Part shown: positions 49,258 to 53,491 of the stretch, in pieces | How the letters are laid out: every line of letters starts with the position of its first letter | Numbering within the stretch: position 1 is the first letter of the stretch | Assembly: GCA_045596145.1 (NCBI GenBank) | Contig: JAZOBV010000119.1 | Coordinates: 26,029-90,028 of the forward strand | Source of the DNA: Candidatus Pelethomonas sp. | Lineage (GTDB): Bacteria > Bacillota > Clostridia > Oscillospirales > Oscillospiraceae | Direction of reading: 5' to 3' | Length of the DNA stretch: 64,000 bases | The notes under the pieces: generated by a model | Database searches by the model: none | What the model was told of the DNA's origin: nothing | Seen by the model: the letters and a program-made list of their open reading frames with translations, nothing else | Program-made: the position numbers and the translations under genes

Positions 49258-50322
49258 TCAGCGCCATAATCTTATTACTCCGGCATCCTGAAGCTGCTTG
49301 AGGAGCAGCAAAAGCACCGGCAGCAGAATCATTCCCCCCACACCAAGAAAGTGATACCCCAGATACATAGCGAGGAGCACAGTGATGGAAGGAAGACCCG
49401 CCTGACCGGCAAGCAGGCGGGGTTCCAGCAGCGAATGGACGAGCATTGCCGCGCCGTAGAGTATAAGAAGAGAGAGTCCGAGTCCGGTATCGCCGGTCAG
49501 AAAGCAGAATAAAGACCATGGAATCAGGATCGTGCCTGTTCCCAGAACCGGGAGAGCGTCTACCAAAGCGATAAAAAAAGCACCCAAAAGCGCAAAATCC
49601 AGTTTCAGCCACCAGAACCCCAGCAGCATGATAAAAAAGGTGACAAGGATCAAAAGAAGCTCTGAGCGCAGCCATTTGAGCATAGCGCTGCGGAAGCATT
49701 GTGCCGCGCCGCGGCACCGCTCCTGCCAAGGGGGAGGGAGCTGACGTTTGAGGAAGGAGAGGATCATGCTGTAATTAACGGCGGTAAAGTACAGGGCGAG
49801 CACAGTTGTTACGCAGAATAAGCCCACGCTGGGAAGGGCAGATGCCAGTGCGGAGATGCGGTCCATCAAAAAGCCTCCCGCCTTGCCGACAAGTGCGGGA
49901 GCGTTTTCTCCCAGCGCGGCGGCGGTTTTGTCCAGCGCGGTTCGTAAAAAGGGAGGGCAGGCGGTATACCAGCTCTCAACGCGGTCCAGTGCGCTGTTCC
50001 AGAGAGCGGGGAATGCCTCGATCGTCTTCGGAAGCTGCTGTGACCATTCCATTAGCTCGGAGCCCAGCCGCAGGGCAAGCAGTGCCGCTGCGCCGCCAAG
50101 GCTCAGCAGCAGTGCTGTAGTTGTTGCCACGGCGGCAAAGGAGCGGCGCACGCCAATGGCGCGGCGCAGCCGCTGCACGATGGGTTCCAGCAGCGCGCTT
50201 AAGCCCAGCGAGAGCAGAAAGGGGAGCAGCGGAACGAAGAGAAAGCGGAGAAACAGGATAAGCCCTGTCAGCCACAGGGCGATGCGCAGCGCGCGGTGCA
50301 TATAAGAGTATTCTTGCGGCAT
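49258..50322 (-). CDS. AI-2E family transporter (PerM/YtvI-like membrane protein)
   Basis: 354 aa with about eight TM segments and the family-typical GLGLSLLILYGA...LEPRL region. The start could be the internal Met8. Confidence 0.75.
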   Translation of the reverse strand: MPQEYSYMHRALRIALWLTGLILFLRFLFVPLLPFLLSLGLSALLEPIVQRLRRAIGVRRSFAAVATTTALLLSLGGAAALLALRLGSELMEWSQQLPKTIEAFPALWNSALDRVESWYTACPPFLRTALDKTAAALGENAPALVGKAGGFLMDRISALASALPSVGLFCVTTVLALYFTAVNYSMILSFLKRQLPPPWQERCRGAAQCFRSAMLKWLRSELLLILVTFFIMLLGFWWLKLDFALLGAFFIALVDALPVLGTGTILIPWSLFCFLTGDTGLGLSLLILYGAAMLVHSLLEPRLLAGQAGLPSITVLLAMYLGYHFLGVGGMILLPVLLLLLKQLQDAGVIRLWR

Positions 50323-50433
50323 GATTTGGGCATATCCTCACTTTCCGGAATAATAAGGCACAAAAGGGAATTGTCAAAACGCGTAGATTGTGGTAGATTA
50401 ATGAAGACAAATGTCTTTATGGGAGGGGCAGAT

Positions 50434-50874
50434 ATGGGAAGCTCGACCAAGTTTTATATCGTTGCGGCAGACGCGCTGCCGGAGGTGTTCGTCAAGGTGG
50501 CGGAGGCAAAGCGCCTTCTGGTGACCGGTGAGGCGGAAACGGTAGGCGAAGCCGCCCGCATGGTGGGCATCAGCCGCAGTGCGTTTTACAAGTATAAGGA
50601 TTCTGTCCAGCCGCTGAGCAATATGAAGGTGGGACACATTATCACGTTTTACACCATGCTCAAGGACAGTCCGGGCGTGCTGAGTGATGTGTTGTCTATT
50701 TTTGCCGGAAGCGGTGCAAATATTCTGACCATCAATCAGAGTATCCCCACCAACAGCTGTGCGTCAGTGACGATTTCGGCAGAAACCTCGGATATGGAGA
50801 TGAGTCTTGAGGAGCTGATGGAAACGGTGAGCGCGGTGGATGGCGTGGTGCGCTTTGATATCCTTGCCGGATAA
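50434..50874 (+). CDS. ACT domain-containing protein (UPF0735/PheB-like)
   Basis: Start at MGSSTKFYIV (ATG 50434, GGGAGGGG upstream). An N-terminal HTH-like segment (GISRSAFYKYKD) is followed by a C-terminal ACT fold. Confidence 0.8.
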   Translation: MGSSTKFYIVAADALPEVFVKVAEAKRLLVTGEAETVGEAARMVGISRSAFYKYKDSVQPLSNMKVGHIITFYTMLKDSPGVLSDVLSIFAGSGANILTINQSIPTNSCASVTISAETSDMEMSLEELMETVSAVDGVVRFDILAG

Positions 50875-50895
50875 TTTTATTCGTCCCGCCGTCCG

Positions 50896-50961
50896 GCGAT
50901 AACCAAATGGAACTCCCGACACTATAATGGTAGTGGCAGTCTGGTTGTTTAGAACGGAAAG
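50896..50961 (+). repeat. 66-bp direct repeat, left copy (candidate attL)
   Basis: gcgataaccaaatggaactcccgacactataatggtagtggcagtctggttgtttagaacggaaag is identical base-for-base to 52438-52503 (checked by hand). The flanking bases differ on both sides. Confidence 0.95.
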
Positions 50962-51072
50962 CTCCATGCAGACCAGACGGCATACGCCTGCGGCGTAGGG
51001 TCATCGAACATGCGTTCGATTATCGGCGGTTGGGTGCGCCCGGGTGGATAACTTTCACTGATGCACTATATC

Positions 51073-51101
51073 TTGCGTTAAGTTCTGCTTTGAGTTACAA
51101 T
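51073..51101 (+). promoter_or_regulatory. sigma70-like promoter inside the insertion, facing the RHH gene
   Basis: TTGCGT (51073-78), 17-nt spacer, TACAAT (51096-101). A 7-bp hairpin, atcgaac-atgc-gttcgat, lies about 55 bp upstream. Confidence 0.4.
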
Positions 51102-51137
51102 ATATGGGGGGTGTGCTACAGTATCGAAATAAGGGAG

Positions 51138-51320
51138 GTGTGGAAAATAAGTATAAAATGGGACAGCAGGAACCTGCGCACGGTAAGCACTCACCTGCGC
51201 ACGGAAGAAGCGGAAGAACTGCAGCAGATATGCGCCCTGCAGCATATCACGCCGTATTCGATGATGCGGGAATACCTGCGCGACTACATCAAGCAGCACC
51301 GCAATGCGCTGCGGCGCTGA
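51138..51320 (+). CDS. ribbon-helix-helix (CopG/MobC-like) small DNA-binding protein, start uncertain
   Basis: The frame reads ...WKISIKWDSRNLRTVSTHLRTEEAEELQQICALQHITPYSMMREYLRDYIKQHRNALRR. This is a beta-strand plus two amphipathic helices, typical of RHH. A strong SD, AAGGGAGG, sits at 51131-38, but no canonical start codon lies 5-10 nt downstream in this frame. Confidence 0.5.
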   Translation: MWKISIKWDSRNLRTVSTHLRTEEAEELQQICALQHITPYSMMREYLRDYIKQHRNALRR

Positions 51321-51354
51321 CGGTGCCCCTGCAGGGCGGTCAATCGTCGCCGTA
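51320..51354. repeat. inverted repeat, left arm (35 bp)
   Basis: acggtgcccctgcagggcggtcaatcgtcgccgta. The reverse complement of 52057-52092 is identical except for one extra C in the C-run. It contains the 10-bp palindrome ccctgcaggg. Confidence 0.9.
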
Positions 51355-51771
51355 AAAGGGACACTCCTGCAGACGTAGCCGGGATAGCCGGGCGCCTGCT
51401 GCGCTTCTCACGCATGGCAGCGGTTGTGCTGCAGGTGTTGCCGCCGATGGTCGCGCTTTAGCGTGTGCTGCAGTCCGCGCTATGCTGCCGCGCGCGTTCA
51501 CTGTCGCGGCTGATAACCTTGCGGGGGCGTCGATGCAGTCAGCGCCGCCCCTTTCGTATGTGCTGCAAGCCTAACAGGCGGTCAAGGGTAAAGCAAGCAG
51601 CGCCCCGGCGCCCGCGCTGCGGTCGCTTCGGCGGGTGTGTGCGCCGCCGTGTGCGCTTGGGCGTGGGCGCCCCCTGCGTCGCCCTCTCCCGCCGCCGCCC
51701 ATGGCGGTCGTGGCGCTGCCCTGTGACTGCGCCCGTTTAATCGGCTGCATCACACGAAAGGAGCAGACGCC

Positions 51772-52071
51772 ATGACTGCAAACATCAACAACACCACCCG
51801 CAAGAACATCTACCGCCGCGACGGTTTCCGCTGCGCTCTGTGCGACAGCACCAAAGGACTGCAGGTGCATCACTACATACACCGCTCCCGCGGCGGCTCC
51901 AACCAACCGCACAACCTTATATGCCTATGTTGGAAATGTCATGCGGTCGCGCATGGTACGCAAATGCCCGACTACCCCGACTATGTCACGCAGGAGTATA
52001 TCGAGCAGGCTATATGCGAATATCTGAGCGATTTCTATGCCGGGGACTGGTACCCATACGGCGACGATTGA
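51772..52071 (+). CDS. HNH endonuclease (99 aa, free-standing)
   Basis: AAAGGAG lies 7 nt before ATG 51772. CALCDSTKGLQVHHYIHRSRGGSNQPHNLICLCWKCHAVAH gives the CxxC...HH...N...CxxCH..H pattern of the HNH fold. Confidence 0.85.
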   Translation: MTANINNTTRKNIYRRDGFRCALCDSTKGLQVHHYIHRSRGGSNQPHNLICLCWKCHAVAHGTQMPDYPDYVTQEYIEQAICEYLSDFYAGDWYPYGDD

Positions 52072-52092
52072 CCGCCCTGCAGGGGGCACCGT
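52057..52092. repeat. inverted repeat, right arm (36 bp)
   Basis: tacggcgacgattgaccgccctgcagggggcaccgt. It encodes the last four residues (YGDD) and the stop codon of the HNH ORF. Confidence 0.9.
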
Positions 52093-52437
52093 AAGAGCTG
52101 CGGTGCCCCCGAACAACTCCGGGTGCTGTCCTCGGCTGCTCCCCGACCGCCGCGGCTGCGGTGCCAATGAAACGACATGGCTGCTTGTTGGCAACTAAGA
52201 GGTGGGCGCCCGGCTCCCCCCCTCGGCGGCTGTTGGGTTTCTTGGGGGTGGTTGCCGCCTTTGCTCCGCGCCCCCCCGGGCGCCTTTTGATTTGCGGCGC
52301 GATTGCTGCGCGCCGTGCCTCGTCGCCGCGCTGTTTGCGTGGGGGGGTGGTGGCGCGGCTCCTCGGGTGCTGCCCTGCGGTGCGTTGCGCTGCAGGTGGG
52401 CGCGGTGCTGCCCTAAAGAAAAAAATAGTGCTGAACA

Positions 52438-52503
52438 GCGATAACCAAATGGAACTCCCGACACTATAATGGTAGTGGCAGTCTGGTTGTTTAGAACGGA
52501 AAG
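52438..52503 (+). repeat. 66-bp direct repeat, right copy (candidate attR); also the native aspartokinase leader/promoter region
   Basis: Identical to 50896-50961. It contains a TATAAT hexamer and ends 1 nt before the aspartokinase SD (GGGAG). Confidence 0.95.
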
Positions 52504-52513
52504 GGAGTACCAC

Positions 52514-53491
52514 ATGAAACTGATCGTTCAGAAATTTGGTGGCAGCTCCGTCCGGGACGCGCAGCGTCTTCGGAACGTGGCTGCCATCATTGCCGATACC
52601 CGGCGGCAGGGGAATGCGCTGATCGTTGTTCTCTCCGCGCAGGGGGATACCACGGATGAATTGCTGCGCAAGGCACATGAGCTGAGCGGAAATCCCGCGC
52701 CGCGGGAGCTGGATGCGCTGCTTGCCACGGGGGAACAGGCATCTGTTGCGCTGTGCGCGATATTACTGGAGGAAATGGGGCTGCCTGCGGTCAGTCTGAG
52801 CGCGTGGCAGGTAGGGATCCATACCGGGGACGGTCACGGCGACGCCCGCATCACGAGGATCGAAACAGAGCGGGTGCTGCAGGAGCTGGAGAGAGGAAAA
52901 ATCGTTCTCGTTGCCGGTTTTCAGGGCGTTGACCGGGCGCAGGATATCACAACGCTGGGGCGCGGCGGCTCGGATACCAGCGCGGTGGCGCTGGCGGCAG
53001 CATTTCACGCCCGGCGCTGCGAGATCTATACCGATGTTGACGGCGTATATACCACCGATCCACGCATTATGCCCACCGCCCGCAAGCACGAGGAGATCGA
53101 CTGCGACGAGATGCTTGCGCTTGCGCTGCGGGGCGCGCAGGTGCTGCACAGCCGCAGCGTGGAGCTGGCACGCGATCACAAGGTCGATCTTGAGGTCCTG
53201 TCCAGTTTGACGCGAGGCAGGGGAACCAAAGTTACGCCGCGAAAGAATATGGCCCTGCCGCACTTGGCGGGTGTGACACGGGATCGGGATACTGTTTCGG
53301 TCGTGGGAACGGGACTGATGCTGCTGCCCGGTGCGGCGGCAAAGCTGTATCAGGTGCTCAATGATGCCCACATTGTTGTGCACGAGATCGGGCAGAGCGA
53401 GCAGTGCATCTATGCACGGGTAGAAGAAACCGATGCCCTTCGCGCGCTGCGTTTGGCGCATAGGGCCTTTTTTGAAATAGAGCAGGAATAA
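52514..53491 (+). CDS. aspartate kinase (short form, single C-terminal ACT-like domain)
   Basis: Start at MKLIVQKFGGSSV (ATG 52514). Motifs GRGGSDTSAVALAA and YTDVDGVYTTDPR. It is only 325 aa. Confidence 0.85.
   Translation: MKLIVQKFGGSSVRDAQRLRNVAAIIADTRRQGNALIVVLSAQGDTTDELLRKAHELSGNPAPRELDALLATGEQASVALCAILLEEMGLPAVSLSAWQVGIHTGDGHGDARITRIETERVLQELERGKIVLVAGFQGVDRAQDITTLGRGGSDTSAVALAAAFHARRCEIYTDVDGVYTTDPRIMPTARKHEEIDCDEMLALALRGAQVLHSRSVELARDHKVDLEVLSSLTRGRGTKVTPRKNMALPHLAGVTRDRDTVSVVGTGLMLLPGAAAKLYQVLNDAHIVVHEIGQSEQCIYARVEETDALRALRLAHRAFFEIEQE

What the first reader, a model, noticed from the sequence alone, without database searches (positions are those of the whole stretch)
50896..52503. 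A 1.48-kb high-GC insertion flanked by perfect 66-bp direct repeats, carrying only RHH and HNH genes: a recombinase-less mobile or episome-derived module
What the sequence shows:
- The 66 nt at 50896-50961 and 52438-52503 are identical base-for-base, and identity stops abruptly on both sides.
- The right copy is the native leader of aspartokinase. It contains a TATAAT hexamer and ends 1 nt before the SD.
- The 1,476 bp between the copies therefore look inserted into the ACT-gene/ask spacer, with the target region duplicated.

Why this is unusual:
- 66 bp is far too long for a transposase target-site duplication.
- It fits either att-type site-specific integration or Campbell integration of a 1,542-bp circle carrying a copy of the host leader.
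- The cargo has no integrase, transposase, Rep or reverse transcriptase.
- It holds a promoter, a hairpin (atcgaac/gttcgat), a small RHH (CopG/MobC/Xis-like) gene, a 99-aa HNH nuclease and two GC-rich non-coding blocks.

Possible readings are a non-autonomous cis-mobilisable element using a helper recombinase in trans, an HNH-driven homing-type cassette, or a minimal satellite. I know of no described element class with exactly this layout. This is the most unusual locus in the window.
Basis: partly seen in the sequence, partly recalled or inferred. Interest (0 to 1): 0.85.

Follow-up and report, generated by a model that had tools for sequence, protein, structure and literature searches.

The report
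Integrated HNH–RHH mobile minicircle element
The 1.5-kb insert is one copy of an apparently undescribed family of tiny mobile DNA circles in gut Oscillospiraceae that encode only a 100-residue HNH nuclease and a small DNA-binding protein, and that sit in chromosomes between unusually long (26-160 bp) duplications of the target.

Summary
Window 50896-50961 and 52438-52503 are identical 66-mers. Conspecific metagenome contigs carry the empty site: ACT gene, one 66-mer, ask.

The insert is not a one-off. HNH homologues led to 54 analysable chromosomal copies in Oscillospiraceae, each 1.0-2.2 kb. Each is bracketed by its own direct repeat of different sequence (26-113 nt exact, median 49).

Shared features:
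- The target ends in G at the left junction.
- A left-end hairpin with covarying stems lies 10 or 13 nt from that junction.
- A LexA (SOS) box is enriched about 30-fold.
- An RHH-like gene and an IscB/McrA-like HNH gene are present.
- An inverted repeat (GTCAAGGG...CCCTTGAC) precedes the HNH gene.
- A right-end hairpin is followed by variable filler.

No member encodes a recombinase, transposase or Rep. Closed circular contigs of 1.33-1.51 kb recur in independent samples and assemblers. Three near-identical cargos carry three unrelated junction segments.

Best reading: an SOS-controlled, HNH-dependent minicircle element. A site-specific nick would start a one-ended, repair-dependent insertion that duplicates the target, and recombination between the repeats would regenerate circles. 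The mechanism is inferred, not shown.

I found no description in the literature I could search. The window copy carries several private lesions.

The parts
50896..50961 (+). Left copy of the 66-bp direct repeat, which is duplicated target (ask leader). It ends in ...GGAAAG.
   Evidence: Empty sites L001 and L007-L009 carry exactly one copy.
50962..51000 (+). Left end (LE) of the element. It comprises the terminal spacer CTCCATGCAGACCAGACGGCAT, the hairpin T-ACGCC-TGC-GGCGT-A (50983-50997) and AGGG. The spacer is 22 nt here instead of the family's 13, because of a 9-nt imperfect tandem duplication.
   Evidence: Forty of 54 elements carry GGYAT-stem-loop-stem'-AGR. On the alignment 96.6% of cells pair and 42 cells changed on both sides, against 10.9 in shuffles.
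51005..51018 (.). LexA (SOS/Cheo) box CGAACATGCGTTCG.
   Evidence: The core GAAC-N4-GT[TA]C occurs in 32 of 54 cargos: 0.44 per kb against 0.014 per kb in the flanks, with a shuffle mean of 1.6.
51095..51122 (+). Sigma-70-like promoter of the RHH gene: TTACAA, 16 nt, TACAGT. The GTGCTACAGTA motif is conserved in relatives.
   Evidence: sequence reading. L013/L015 have TTGACA-17-TACACT at the same place.
51138..51320 (+). Small RHH-like gene. The start is uncertain. A GTG at 51138 abuts the SD. The codon that is ATG in L010 and GTG in L198 is ATA (51147) here.
   Evidence: The family motif is RQAxWDxxNLRTVSTxL...C...G.TPY.LLR. The profile hits ParG, CopG-family and AvtR structures (E 0.005-0.04).
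51321..51439 (.). Private ~118-nt insert, absent from the nearest relative L010. It holds the left arm (51326-51354) of the perfect 29-nt inverted repeat, which is an inverted copy of the 3' end of the HNH gene.
51440..51771 (+). Conserved GC-rich non-coding block upstream of the HNH gene. It carries the family inverted repeat: 5' arm GGTCAAGGGTA at 51580-51590 and imperfect 3' arm GCCCTGTGACT at 51718-51728. The SD is at 51756-51764.
   Evidence: The inverted repeat is found in 63 of 76 loci, with the 3' arm 41-62 nt before the HNH start and the two arms changing together.
51772..52071 (+). HNH nuclease gene, 99 aa. It has a CxxC...HH...N...CxxC-H zinc-finger ββα-Me core plus a conserved C-terminal helix.
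   Evidence: AF2 pLDDT is 91.8. The nearest relatives are the HNH domains of IscB, McrA, Cap5 and Cascade-HNH.
52072..52414 (+). Conserved GC-rich 3' non-coding block and right end (RE). It contains the right arm of the 29-nt inverted repeat (52057-52085, overlapping the HNH stop), a terminator-like hairpin at 52268-52283, the motif GGCGCGGCTCCTCGGG at 52352-52367, and the repeated RE core GGTGCTGCCCT at 52366-76 and 52404-14.
   Evidence: It is about 85% identical to L010, as conserved as the genes.
52415..52437 (+). Variable 'filler' between the right end and the right repeat: AAAGAAAAAAATAGTGCTGAACA.
   Evidence: Filler length and sequence differ even between close relatives.
52438..52503 (+). 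Right copy of the 66-bp direct repeat. It is the functional leader of ask, whose ATG is at 52514.

Best explanation
Window 50962-52437, together with one 66-bp repeat, is an integrated copy of a small mobile element family of gut Oscillospiraceae. I call it here an HNH-RHH minicircle element.

SHOWN
1. The insertion is polymorphic within the species. Empty sites exist.
2. At least 54 relatives of 1.0-2.2 kb lie in different chromosomal sites. Each sits between its own long direct repeat (26-113 nt exact, up to about 160 with mismatches).
3. The junction next to the left end is specific. The target ends in G, and the junction lies 10 or 13 nt 5' of a hairpin whose stem covaries. The other junction has no sequence signature and carries variable filler.
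4. The only conserved proteins are a catalytically intact-looking HNH nuclease and an RHH-like protein.
5. A LexA box is a family feature.
6. Closed circles of 1.33-1.51 kb occur in independent samples. Some have the right and left ends almost abutting. Others have a host-like segment of 68-73 nt between the ends.
7. Isolates carry several copies.

INFERRED
- After SOS induction relieves LexA repression, the HNH protein nicks one strand at the G^ position defined by the left-end hairpin. The RHH protein would act as regulator or architectural partner. The nick would be made on the element and at loosely matching (A/T)A(A/G)G^ sites in the chromosome.
- The free 3' end of the nicked target is joined to, or primes copying of, the element from its left end.
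- The far end is rejoined upstream in the unwound target by template switching or microhomology. The stretch between that point and the nick is then copied twice. This would give a long duplication of variable length plus filler.
- Once the repeats exist, RecA recombination or single-strand annealing between them excises a circle carrying one repeat copy. It also allows Campbell-type re-entry, which keeps the repeats identical.
- The circles probably replicate, perhaps by HNH-nicked rolling-circle synthesis. The GC-rich structured blocks would then act as origin signals.

In the window, the right repeat keeps the native ask leader intact, so the insertion is probably near neutral.
For: - Empty sites.
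- Family and repeats.
- Left-junction specificity: the last base of the repeat is G in 46 of 54 (1.19 bits), and there is no signal at the other boundary.
- Left-end hairpin: 40 of 54 are canonical. The stem lies 13 nt (23 cases) or 10 nt (6 cases) from the junction. There are 184 Watson-Crick pairs and no G·T pairs. There are 42 double-sided changes against 10.9 in shuffles (0 of 500), and slid controls pair at 32-51%.
- Independent insertions at one site share the specific boundary but differ at the other boundary and in filler: L028/L045, and L052/L053/L074 in the rplL 3' end.
- No other enzyme gene in any member.
- HNH is intact and conserved.
- RHH-like fold.
- LexA box enrichment, 34 hits against 1.6 expected.
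- Circles:
  - k-1 = 30-nt overlaps in Logan contigs L015, L110, L118 and L208.
  - A 55-nt overlap in metaSPAdes contig L199 at 17x coverage.
  - All 12-15 contigs carrying P0050, P0104 or P0077 are under 2 kb and lie inside the circles.
  - L198 shows that an integrated copy instead breaks inside its repeat.
- One cargo (95-98% identical) with three unrelated junctions: L013, L015 and L199.
- Multi-copy isolates: Yanshouia hominis BX1 and Ruminococcaceae D5.
- A 91-nt stutter of right end plus repeat start in the complete O. hominis genome, absent from L013.
Against: - No biochemical or read-level evidence is available. Nicking by the HNH protein, its site, and replication of the circles are all inferred.
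- HNH nucleases are not known to catalyse strand transfer, so host ligase or polymerase must be invoked.
- The closed circular contigs could also be head-to-tail tandem arrays.
- Perfect repeats in copies whose cargos have diverged by 8% (L010 against L198) fit repeated homologous re-entry better than a single old transposition.
- The hairpins in the covariation test were picked by a complementarity finder, so that test is partly circular.
- The window copy departs from the family pattern in four ways. Its left-end spacer is 22 nt instead of 13. Its 3' arm of the inverted repeat is imperfect. It has ATA where relatives have the RHH start codon. It has a 118-nt private insert. It may no longer be mobile.
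- The exact HNH protein was seen on one contig only.
Confidence: 0.6

Rival explanations
1. A plasmid-like circle that enters only by homologous (Campbell) recombination. The element is a Rep-less minicircle that carries a captured piece of host DNA, here the 66-bp ask leader. RecA recombines that piece with the chromosome, so the repeats are simply the shared homology and nothing is duplicated at insertion.
For: - Circles with a single host-like junction segment exist (L015, L199).
- Repeats are perfect in 38 of 54 copies, even where cargos are old.
- The same orthologous site is occupied in related species (L010/L198, L032/L044).
- A LexA box links the element to the SOS response and RecA.
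- Repeat lengths of 26-160 bp are around the minimal length for RecA.
Against: - It does not explain how a circle acquires a segment of a site it has never occupied. Yet near-identical cargos have unrelated junctions, and 54 sites are all different.
- It does not explain why the segment always ends in G at a fixed distance from the left-end hairpin while its other end is arbitrary.
- Some circles have no host segment at all (L208).
Confidence: 0.22
2. A non-autonomous element moved in trans. A transposase encoded elsewhere in the host would move it. Candidates are an IS200/IS605 TnpA acting on the terminal hairpins, or an IS1634-like DDE enzyme that makes long duplications. The HNH protein would only bias inheritance by homing or maintenance, as IscB and TnpB do.
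For: - The HNH is closest to IscB HNH domains.
- It has subterminal hairpins, a short specific target at the left end and circular forms. From my own knowledge, these are features of IS200/IS605.
- IS1634 is a precedent for long, variable-length direct repeats (from my own knowledge; the family is among the hits, not read).
Against: - By established knowledge, IS200/IS605 transposition makes no target duplication, and DDE elements have terminal inverted repeats. Neither fits.
- HNH and RHH are the only genes conserved across about 80 divergent clusters, including free circles. That argues they are the element's own machinery.
- No helper gene lies within 5 kb in 80 loci (loci, not searched exhaustively).
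Confidence: 0.13
3. An assembly artefact. A free circle sharing 66 bp with the chromosome was threaded into the contig by the assembler, and the chromosome of this strain is in fact empty.
For: - A 66-bp shared segment creates a loop in a de Bruijn graph.
- The source is a single 99.5-kb contig.
- Free circles exist in this family.
Against: - The same integrated architecture is seen in over 50 independent assemblies, including the complete O. hominis chromosome CP060490 and isolate genomes.
- A circle carrying 66 bp identical to the host leader itself implies an earlier integration at that site.
Confidence: 0.03
4. Site-specific (att x att) integration by a tyrosine or serine recombinase supplied by a helper phage or ICE, with the 66-mer as the att core.
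For: Long direct repeats flank many integrase-driven islands (established knowledge). The cargo is small, like a satellite.
Against: - The repeats differ in sequence and length at every site, even for near-identical cargos.
- No family member is found in 2.9 million viral contigs or in the phage and plasmid collections.
- No integrase lies nearby.
Confidence: 0.02

Closest known systems
IS200/IS605-type OMEGA elements (IscB / IsrB / IshB carriers)
   Same: - The HNH domain is most similar to that of IscB (PDB 9k2z, E 1e-9; partial match to NCBIfam guided_IscB, 2.8e-14).
- Both have subterminal hairpins at both ends.
- Both have a short specific target flush with the left end, at a fixed distance from the left-end hairpin.
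- Both have circular forms, and large conserved structured non-coding regions next to the nuclease gene.
- Both occur without any transposase gene in the element.
   Different: - The protein has no RuvC, PLMP or bridge-helix parts. It is 99 aa of HNH only.
- No Rfam hit to HEARO/ωRNA.
- Long target duplications are present, whereas IS200/IS605 makes none.
- The right end is imprecise.
- An RHH partner gene and a LexA box are present.
IS1634 group (IS4-related DDE insertion sequences of mycoplasmas)
   Same: They create long direct repeats of variable length on insertion.
   Different: - IS1634 encodes a DDE transposase of about 500 aa and has terminal inverted repeats.
- This element has neither.
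- It is half the size and has asymmetric ends.
Small rolling-circle plasmids of Gram-positive bacteria (pMV158 type: copG-repB, dso hairpin, sso)
   Same: - Small circles.
- An RHH (CopG-like) gene upstream of a nuclease gene.
- A hairpin-associated specific site.
- Long GC-rich structured non-coding DNA that could serve as a single-strand origin.
- A Firmicutes host.
   Different: - The nuclease is HNH, not an HUH or Rep_trans initiator with a catalytic tyrosine.
- No match to any plasmid in PLSDB.
- It integrates into chromosomes with target duplications.
Free-standing HNH homing endonuclease genes and nicking HNH enzymes (I-HmuI type)
   Same: A small HNH nuclease is the only enzyme of a selfish element. 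A nick is the likely initiating lesion.
   Different: - Homing copies the gene into a homologous allele without target duplication and without circles.
- This element occupies dozens of unrelated sites.
- It has defined ends.
Target-primed insertion of non-LTR retroelements (TPRT)
   Same: - One precise junction primed at a nick.
- A second junction that is variable, with filler.
- Target duplications of variable length.
   Different: - No reverse transcriptase is present in the element.
- The intermediates seen are DNA circles.
- The duplications are much longer.

Membership tests
IS200/IS605 (including IscB/IshB OMEGA elements) | HUH Y1 transposase TnpA, and/or an RNA-guided TnpB or IscB protein (RuvC with or without HNH, PLMP) | tested here: not met
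   The only ORFs are a 99-aa HNH and an RHH-like protein. The guided_IscB match covers only profile positions 181-243 and scores 53 bits against a cut-off of 175.
IS200/IS605 (including IscB/IshB OMEGA elements) | Insertion without target-site duplication | tested here: not met
   26-160-bp direct repeats flank 54 of 54 analysable copies.
IS200/IS605 (including IscB/IshB OMEGA elements) | Subterminal hairpins, with the left cleavage site at a fixed distance 5' of the left-end hairpin | tested here: met
   The left-end hairpin lies 10 or 13 nt from the junction in 29 of 40 canonical cases. A right-end hairpin with a TGCG loop is present.
IS200/IS605 (including IscB/IshB OMEGA elements) | ωRNA / HEARO-type RNA next to the nuclease gene | tested here: not met
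   No Rfam match at E<=1 in 50300-53000. A different conserved inverted repeat is present.
DDE insertion sequences that make long repeats (IS1634 group) | DDE transposase gene and terminal inverted repeats | tested here: not met
   There is no such ORF. The ends are asymmetric.
DDE insertion sequences that make long repeats (IS1634 group) | Long direct repeats of variable length at insertion sites | tested here: met
Integrase-driven integrative elements (att-type) | Tyrosine or serine recombinase gene | tested here: not met
   None in any of 57 cargos.
Integrase-driven integrative elements (att-type) | A common att core shared by the copies | tested here: not met
   The repeats are unrelated in sequence. 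The only shared feature is the terminal G.
Rolling-circle plasmids (HUH or Rep_trans initiators) | Rep initiator with a catalytic tyrosine | tested here: not met
   Pfam, NCBIfam and PHROG scans find only HNH and weak RHH. No PLSDB match.
Rolling-circle plasmids (HUH or Rep_trans initiators) | Autonomous circular replicon | tested here: inconclusive
   Closed circular contigs without flanks occur in many samples. Copy number and replication were not measurable.
Free-standing HNH homing endonuclease genes | HNH ββα-Me nuclease with catalytic residues | tested here: met
   Pfam HNH 6.9e-8. Invariant C21, C24, H33, H34, N48, C53, C56, H57 and H61. The AF2 model has pLDDT 91.8 and matches McrA, IscB and Cap5 HNH domains.
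Free-standing HNH homing endonuclease genes | Spread by copying into a homologous cognate site, without duplication or defined ends | tested here: not met
   It occupies unrelated sites and has duplications and conserved termini.
Ribbon-helix-helix (CopG/Arc/MetJ) proteins, for the small ORF | β-strand, helix, helix fold detectable by profile | tested here: inconclusive
   A profile of 22 members hits ParG (0.005), CopG-family regulators (0.02-0.05) and AvtR (0.04). Pfam RHH_1 is hit by 4 of 22 members, best 4e-4. All hits are below curated cut-offs.
LexA-regulated (SOS) genes of Firmicutes | CGAAC-N4-GTTCG operator near the promoter | tested here: met
   In the window it lies at 51005-51018. 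The core is present in 32 of 54 cargos, about 30-fold over the flanks. Binding by LexA was not tested.

The most novel reading that the evidence does not exclude
This would be the first class of prokaryotic mobile element, and possibly of replicon, whose only enzyme is a roughly 100-residue HNH nickase. The nickase would both start rolling-circle replication of a 1.3-1.5-kb circle at a hairpin-defined site and start target-primed, DNA-templated insertion into the chromosome. The long duplications of variable length would be a by-product. That would be a DNA analogue of TPRT, under SOS control, and it would also rank among the smallest self-propagating DNA elements known.
Probability: 0.3. Interest if true: 0.95.

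Novelty: categorically new. Interest (0 to 1): 0.88.

Why it matters
- All known autonomous bacterial transposable elements and small plasmids rely on DDE/DEDD, HUH, serine or tyrosine recombinases, Cas1, reverse transcriptase or Rep initiators. An element family that spreads with only an HNH nuclease and an RHH protein would add a new mechanistic class.
- It would give HNH nucleases a role beyond homing, restriction and RNA-guided cleavage.
- It would explain a recurrent population of about 1.4-kb 'orphan' contigs in human and animal gut metagenomes.
- The long duplications let the element land in promoters and gene ends without destroying them. Examples are the ask leader here and the rplL 3' end in three species. 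That is an unusual, low-cost parasitic strategy.
- It is also a source of promoter and leader duplications in an abundant gut family.
- The IscB-like HNH with large conserved structured non-coding DNA bears on the origin of OMEGA and Cas9 nucleases.
- A minimal nick-and-copy insertion system could be of biotechnological interest.

Tried and rejected
- **Known RNA families.** An Rfam scan of 50300-53000 at E<=1 found nothing. The GC-rich blocks are therefore not a known ribozyme, ωRNA/HEARO or riboswitch.
- **Phage and plasmid collections.** blastn of the cargo against 50,697 phage and 72,556 plasmid records gave no match.
- **Viral contigs.** IMG/VR holds only generic phage HNH genes at 46% identity or less. 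The phage-gene and satellite readings were dropped.
- **Metagenome scans.** I searched for the window's left end and for the 73-nt junction of circle L015. The host origin of the circle junctions therefore remains inferred from their look (promoter- and terminator-like).
- **Exact look-up of the window's HNH.** Not on record with the contig tool. It is present only on the 99.5-kb source contig.
- **The 29-nt perfect inverted repeat as an invertible switch or family feature.** Rejected. It is absent from L010, L020 and L013 and lies in a private insert.
- **tRNA-type att site.** There is no tRNA in 48-56 kb.
- **Defence-system reading.** PADLOC gives only generic HNH-domain hits.
- **Extra domain in the HNH protein.** The AF2 model and Foldseek show a plain HNH fold.
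- **A second nick motif at the far repeat boundary.** No signal was found.
- **ORF-based classification of the target context.** Too noisy in this high-GC DNA to use, beyond clear cases such as rplL.
- **Literature.** Seven searches found no description.
Full report
**1. The observation**

The two 66-mers at 50896-50961 and 52438-52503 are identical. They are the only two matches in the window even with three mismatches allowed, and none is expected by chance. Identity ends abruptly on both sides.

The right copy abuts GGAGTACCAC-ATG of a 325-aa aspartokinase (AA_kinase, E 9e-54). The left copy starts 21 nt after the stop of a 146-aa ACT-domain gene.

The 1,476 bp in between reach 68-74% GC, against roughly 50-60% around them. 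They hold a 99-aa HNH ORF (51772-52071) and a small ORF ending at 51320 with weak RHH similarity. No other credible gene is present.

**2. It is an insertion, and empty sites exist**

The exact ACT protein occurs on nine metagenome contigs. In six of them the ACT gene is followed by a single copy of the 66-mer and then ask. Three of those six carry an allele with five differences at the 3' end of the 66-mer. These contigs are 94-98.5% identical to the window's flanks, so they come from the same species but not the same strain. The window holds no second copy.

**3. It belongs to a family**

- The HNH protein has 155 close homologues. Most are known only from contigs of 1.0-1.7 kb.
- A full scan of 1.84 billion cluster representatives finds about 80 clusters at 50% identity or more over the full length. 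These stand out from 11,160 generic HNH hits, so this is a compact clade.
- Longer contigs show the same pair, small ORF plus HNH, in unrelated chromosomal places. One lies between hpf and divIC (L010/L011). Another lies upstream of a SleB-like hydrolase gene in the complete genome of Oscillibacter hominis (L012/L013). Each is flanked by its own perfect direct repeat, of 49 and 39 nt.
- A scan of one genome per GTDB species gave 137 relatives, of which 80 loci were fetched. All are Oscillospiraceae or unclassified Clostridia from guts.
- Of the loci with enough flank, 54 have a direct repeat bracketing the HNH gene. The repeats are 26-113 nt exact (median 49), or 26-162 nt if a few mismatches are allowed. 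Spacing is 1.0-2.25 kb, and every repeat has a different sequence. Thirty-eight are clean and perfect.
- A 66-bp repeat is therefore ordinary for this family.

**4. Anatomy shared by the family**

*Left end.* The repeat ends in G in 46 of 54 cases (1.19 bits), with a weak (A/T)A(A/G) preference before it. The cargo usually starts with C. Ten or 13 nt further on comes GGYAT-stem-loop-stem'-AGR.
- Forty of 54 elements have this canonical hairpin, with at least 12 different stem sequences.
- There are 184 Watson-Crick pairs and not one G·T pair. The absence of G·T pairs hints at a DNA-level hairpin rather than an RNA one.
- On an alignment of 37 hairpins, 96.6% of cells pair. Forty-two cells changed on both sides, against 10.9 in shuffles (0 of 500). 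Slid registers pair at only 32-51%.
- Caveat: the hairpins were located with a complementarity finder. The independent evidence is their fixed position between the conserved GGYAT and AGR flanks.

*LexA box.* A Gram-positive LexA box follows in many members. The consensus CGAAC-N4-GTTCG is from my own knowledge. The core occurs 34 times in 77 kb of cargo, 6 times in 441 kb of flanks, and 1.6 times on average in shuffles. The window's copy is at 51005-51018.

*Small ORF.* It has its own σ70-like promoter and a conserved motif (RQAxWDxxNLRTVSTxL...C...G.TPY.LLR). A profile of 22 members hits the RHH proteins ParG, CopG-family regulators and AvtR at E 0.005-0.04. The RHH call is therefore probable, not proven.

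*Inverted repeat before the HNH gene.* G(T)CAAGG(G)...(C)CCTTG(A)C precedes the HNH gene in 63 of 76 loci. Its 3' arm ends 41-62 nt before the start codon. It encloses either 21-40 or 115-160 nt, and the two arms change together. The CAAGG arm resembles the target preference (...AAGG^...CAAG^, CCTTGG^). That resemblance is only a lead.

*HNH protein.* It has all the zinc and catalytic residues. It folds with high confidence (pLDDT 91.8) as a plain HNH domain, closest to those of McrA, Cap5, IscB and Cascade-HNH.

*Right end.* It is GC-rich, with a hairpin whose loop is usually TGCG and whose stem varies. This is followed by 3 to more than 40 nt of filler that differs even between close relatives. 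The boundary with the repeat shows no sequence preference.

*Conservation and gene content.*
- The non-coding blocks are as conserved as the genes, about 85% between the window and L010.
- In some subfamilies the gene order is HNH then RHH.
- A few members carry cargo: a tRNA-Ile gene in L010/L198 and a Spo0A_C-like ORF in L092/L099.
- No member encodes a recombinase, transposase, Rep or reverse transcriptase.

**5. Evidence of movement**

- Near-identical cargos have unrelated junctions. The O. hominis copy (39-nt repeat), circle L015 (73-nt junction) and circle L199 (about 68-nt junction) are 95-98% identical in cargo.
- Two Oscillibacter genomes carry insertions at the same site with the same G-side boundary (AAAAGG|). 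Their other boundaries lie 8 nt apart and their fillers differ (L028, L045).
- Three species carry insertions in the 3' end of rplL at CCTTGG|, with repeats of 93, 85 and 68 nt.
- The isolate Yanshouia hominis BX1 has at least four copies at 94-98% identity. Ruminococcaceae bacterium D5 has two at 98.5%.

**6. Circles**

- Four Logan contigs (L015, L110, L118, L208) close on themselves with the exact k-1 = 30-nt overlap, at arbitrary positions inside the cargo.
- A metaSPAdes contig (L199, 17x coverage) closes with a 55-nt overlap.
- The units are 1,334-1,512 nt.
- All 12-15 contigs that carry each of the HNH proteins P0050, P0104 and P0077 are shorter than 2 kb, although they come from different samples. 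Every one of them that was shown and compared lies wholly inside its circle.
- As a control, an integrated copy in Logan (L198) breaks inside its repeat rather than closing.
- In L208 the right-end hairpin lies only 7 nt from the left end, so that circle has no host segment.
- In L015 and L199 a promoter- or terminator-like segment of about 70 nt, ending in G, sits between the ends.
- A 1,200-nt contig of the BX1 isolate is circularly permuted in the same way.
- Tandem arrays cannot be excluded without reads.

**7. How it most likely works**

The asymmetry is the main clue. One junction is precise and sequence-specific. The other is imprecise, with filler and variable duplication length. This is the signature of a one-ended process that starts at a specific nick and ends by template switching or end joining. 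It is not the signature of a concerted double-strand transfer.

I therefore favour the following sequence:
1. SOS induction relieves LexA repression.
2. The HNH protein nicks at G^, positioned by the left-end hairpin on the element and by a loose AARG motif on the target.
3. The target 3' end is joined to, or primes copying of, the element from its left end.
4. The far end re-anneals upstream in the unwound target.
5. The intervening 26-160 nt are copied twice.

A 91-nt stutter of 'right end plus first 21 nt of the repeat' in the complete O. hominis genome is absent from a sister contig. It looks like a footprint of such switching.

Once repeats exist, recombination between them gives a circle with one repeat copy and allows homologous re-entry. 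This would explain three things:
- the circles with host-like junctions;
- the perfect repeats around diverged cargos (L010 against L198);
- the fillers, as remnants of earlier junctions.

The excess of circle-only contigs suggests that circles replicate. The layout of RHH gene, nuclease gene, hairpin site and long structured GC-rich DNA mirrors copG-repB, dso and sso of rolling-circle plasmids (from my own knowledge). HNH stands in place of the HUH Rep. All of this section is inference.

**8. The window copy in particular**

Its repeats are perfect, and the native ask leader is preserved downstream. However, it departs from its relatives in four ways:
- a 22-nt rather than 13-nt left-end spacer, from a 9-nt imperfect tandem duplication;
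- ATA where L010 has the ATG start and L198 the GTG start of the RHH gene;
- a bulged 3' arm of the inverted repeat upstream of the HNH gene;
- a private 118-nt insert containing an inverted copy of the HNH 3' end, which produces the perfect 29-nt inverted repeat.

It may be a decaying copy.

**9. Comparison with what is known**

It resembles each of the following in part, and fails a defining feature of each (see the membership table):
- IS200/IS605-OMEGA elements, in HNH type, hairpins, left-flush target and circles;
- IS1634, in long variable repeats;
- pMV158-type plasmids, in layout;
- nicking homing endonucleases;
- TPRT elements, in junction asymmetry.

Seven full-text searches found no description. 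There was no match in the phage, plasmid, viral-contig, Rfam or PADLOC resources.

**10. Verdict**

The finding opens onto what appears to be a new class of very small mobile DNA. The existence, anatomy and mobility of the family are well supported. The enzymology is a hypothesis.

Noticed in passing
window 51326-51354 and 52057-52085 (imperfectly extended to 51306-51354 / 52057-52106): A perfect 29-nt inverted repeat. The left arm is an inverted copy of the last codons and stop of the HNH gene. It lies in a ~118-nt insert (51321-51439) that the nearest relative L010 lacks. It is not conserved in L010, L020 or L013. It could be a fold-back or template-switch scar, or a remnant of a second, inverted copy.
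   Followed up: partly
L010 5401-5476 (also L198 ~186-262): The closest relatives of the window's element carry a tRNA-Ile(GAU) gene between the promoter and the RHH gene. The window's element has nothing at that place.
   Followed up: partly
window 51138-51149: The RHH start codon is doubtful in the window. L010 has ATG and L198 has GTG at the position where the window has ATA (51147). The only in-frame GTG (51138) directly abuts the SD. The NCBI-derived protein P0121 (76 aa) would start at a TTG (51090) upstream of the likely promoter.
   Followed up: partly
L012 6603-6785 (O. hominis CP060490), compared with L013: In the complete genome, the last ~70 nt of the element plus the first 21 nt of the right repeat are tandemly duplicated (91-92 nt). 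A metagenome contig of the same insertion does not show this.
   Followed up: partly
L204-L212 and circle L208 (about positions 1180-1440 of the unit): The circles carrying HNH P0104 contain a repeated non-coding module of about 150 nt (GTCGATAGCGCCTAAACCGGATAG...). Its copy number differs between samples, which is iteron-like. None of the 12 contigs has host flanks.
   Followed up: partly
L092 ~114-491 and L099 ~126-485 of the cargo: Two elements carry an extra ORF of about 120 aa. On reading, it resembles the C-terminal DNA-binding domain of Spo0A. This was recognised by eye and not scanned.
   Followed up: no
L005, L006, L009 (empty-site species): Three short contigs of the same species end inside or right after the 66-mer. 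This could mean the assembly graph branches there, that is, occupied and empty alleles coexist in those samples. It could also be chance.
   Followed up: no
L002-L004 against window 50944-50961: The last 18 nt of the 66-mer exist in two alleles in the species: GTTTAGAACGGAAAG and GTCAGAATGGAGAG. Both repeat copies in the window carry the same allele as L001 and L007-L009.
   Followed up: no
L052, L053, L074 (Pseudoflavonifractor phocaeensis An507, a Flavonifractor MAG, Lawsonibacter celer NSJ-47): Three species have an element in the 3' end of what reads as rplL (...KKLEEVGAKVELK*, assigned by eye, not scanned). The duplication restores the gene end. This suggests a hot spot at CCTTGG.
   Followed up: partly
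L094 and L095 (CAKTPP010000002.1, 122 kb apart): Two copies on one contig are 99.5% identical. They seem to share part of their flanking sequence (ATCATTTTCT[T/C]CGGCGAC). The site itself may lie in a larger duplicated segment.
   Followed up: no
window 52268-52283: A terminator-like hairpin with a T-run (GCGCCCCCCCGGGCGC CTTTTGATTT) lies on the + strand inside the 3' block. It is conserved in L010 and could shield ask from read-through out of the element.
   Followed up: no
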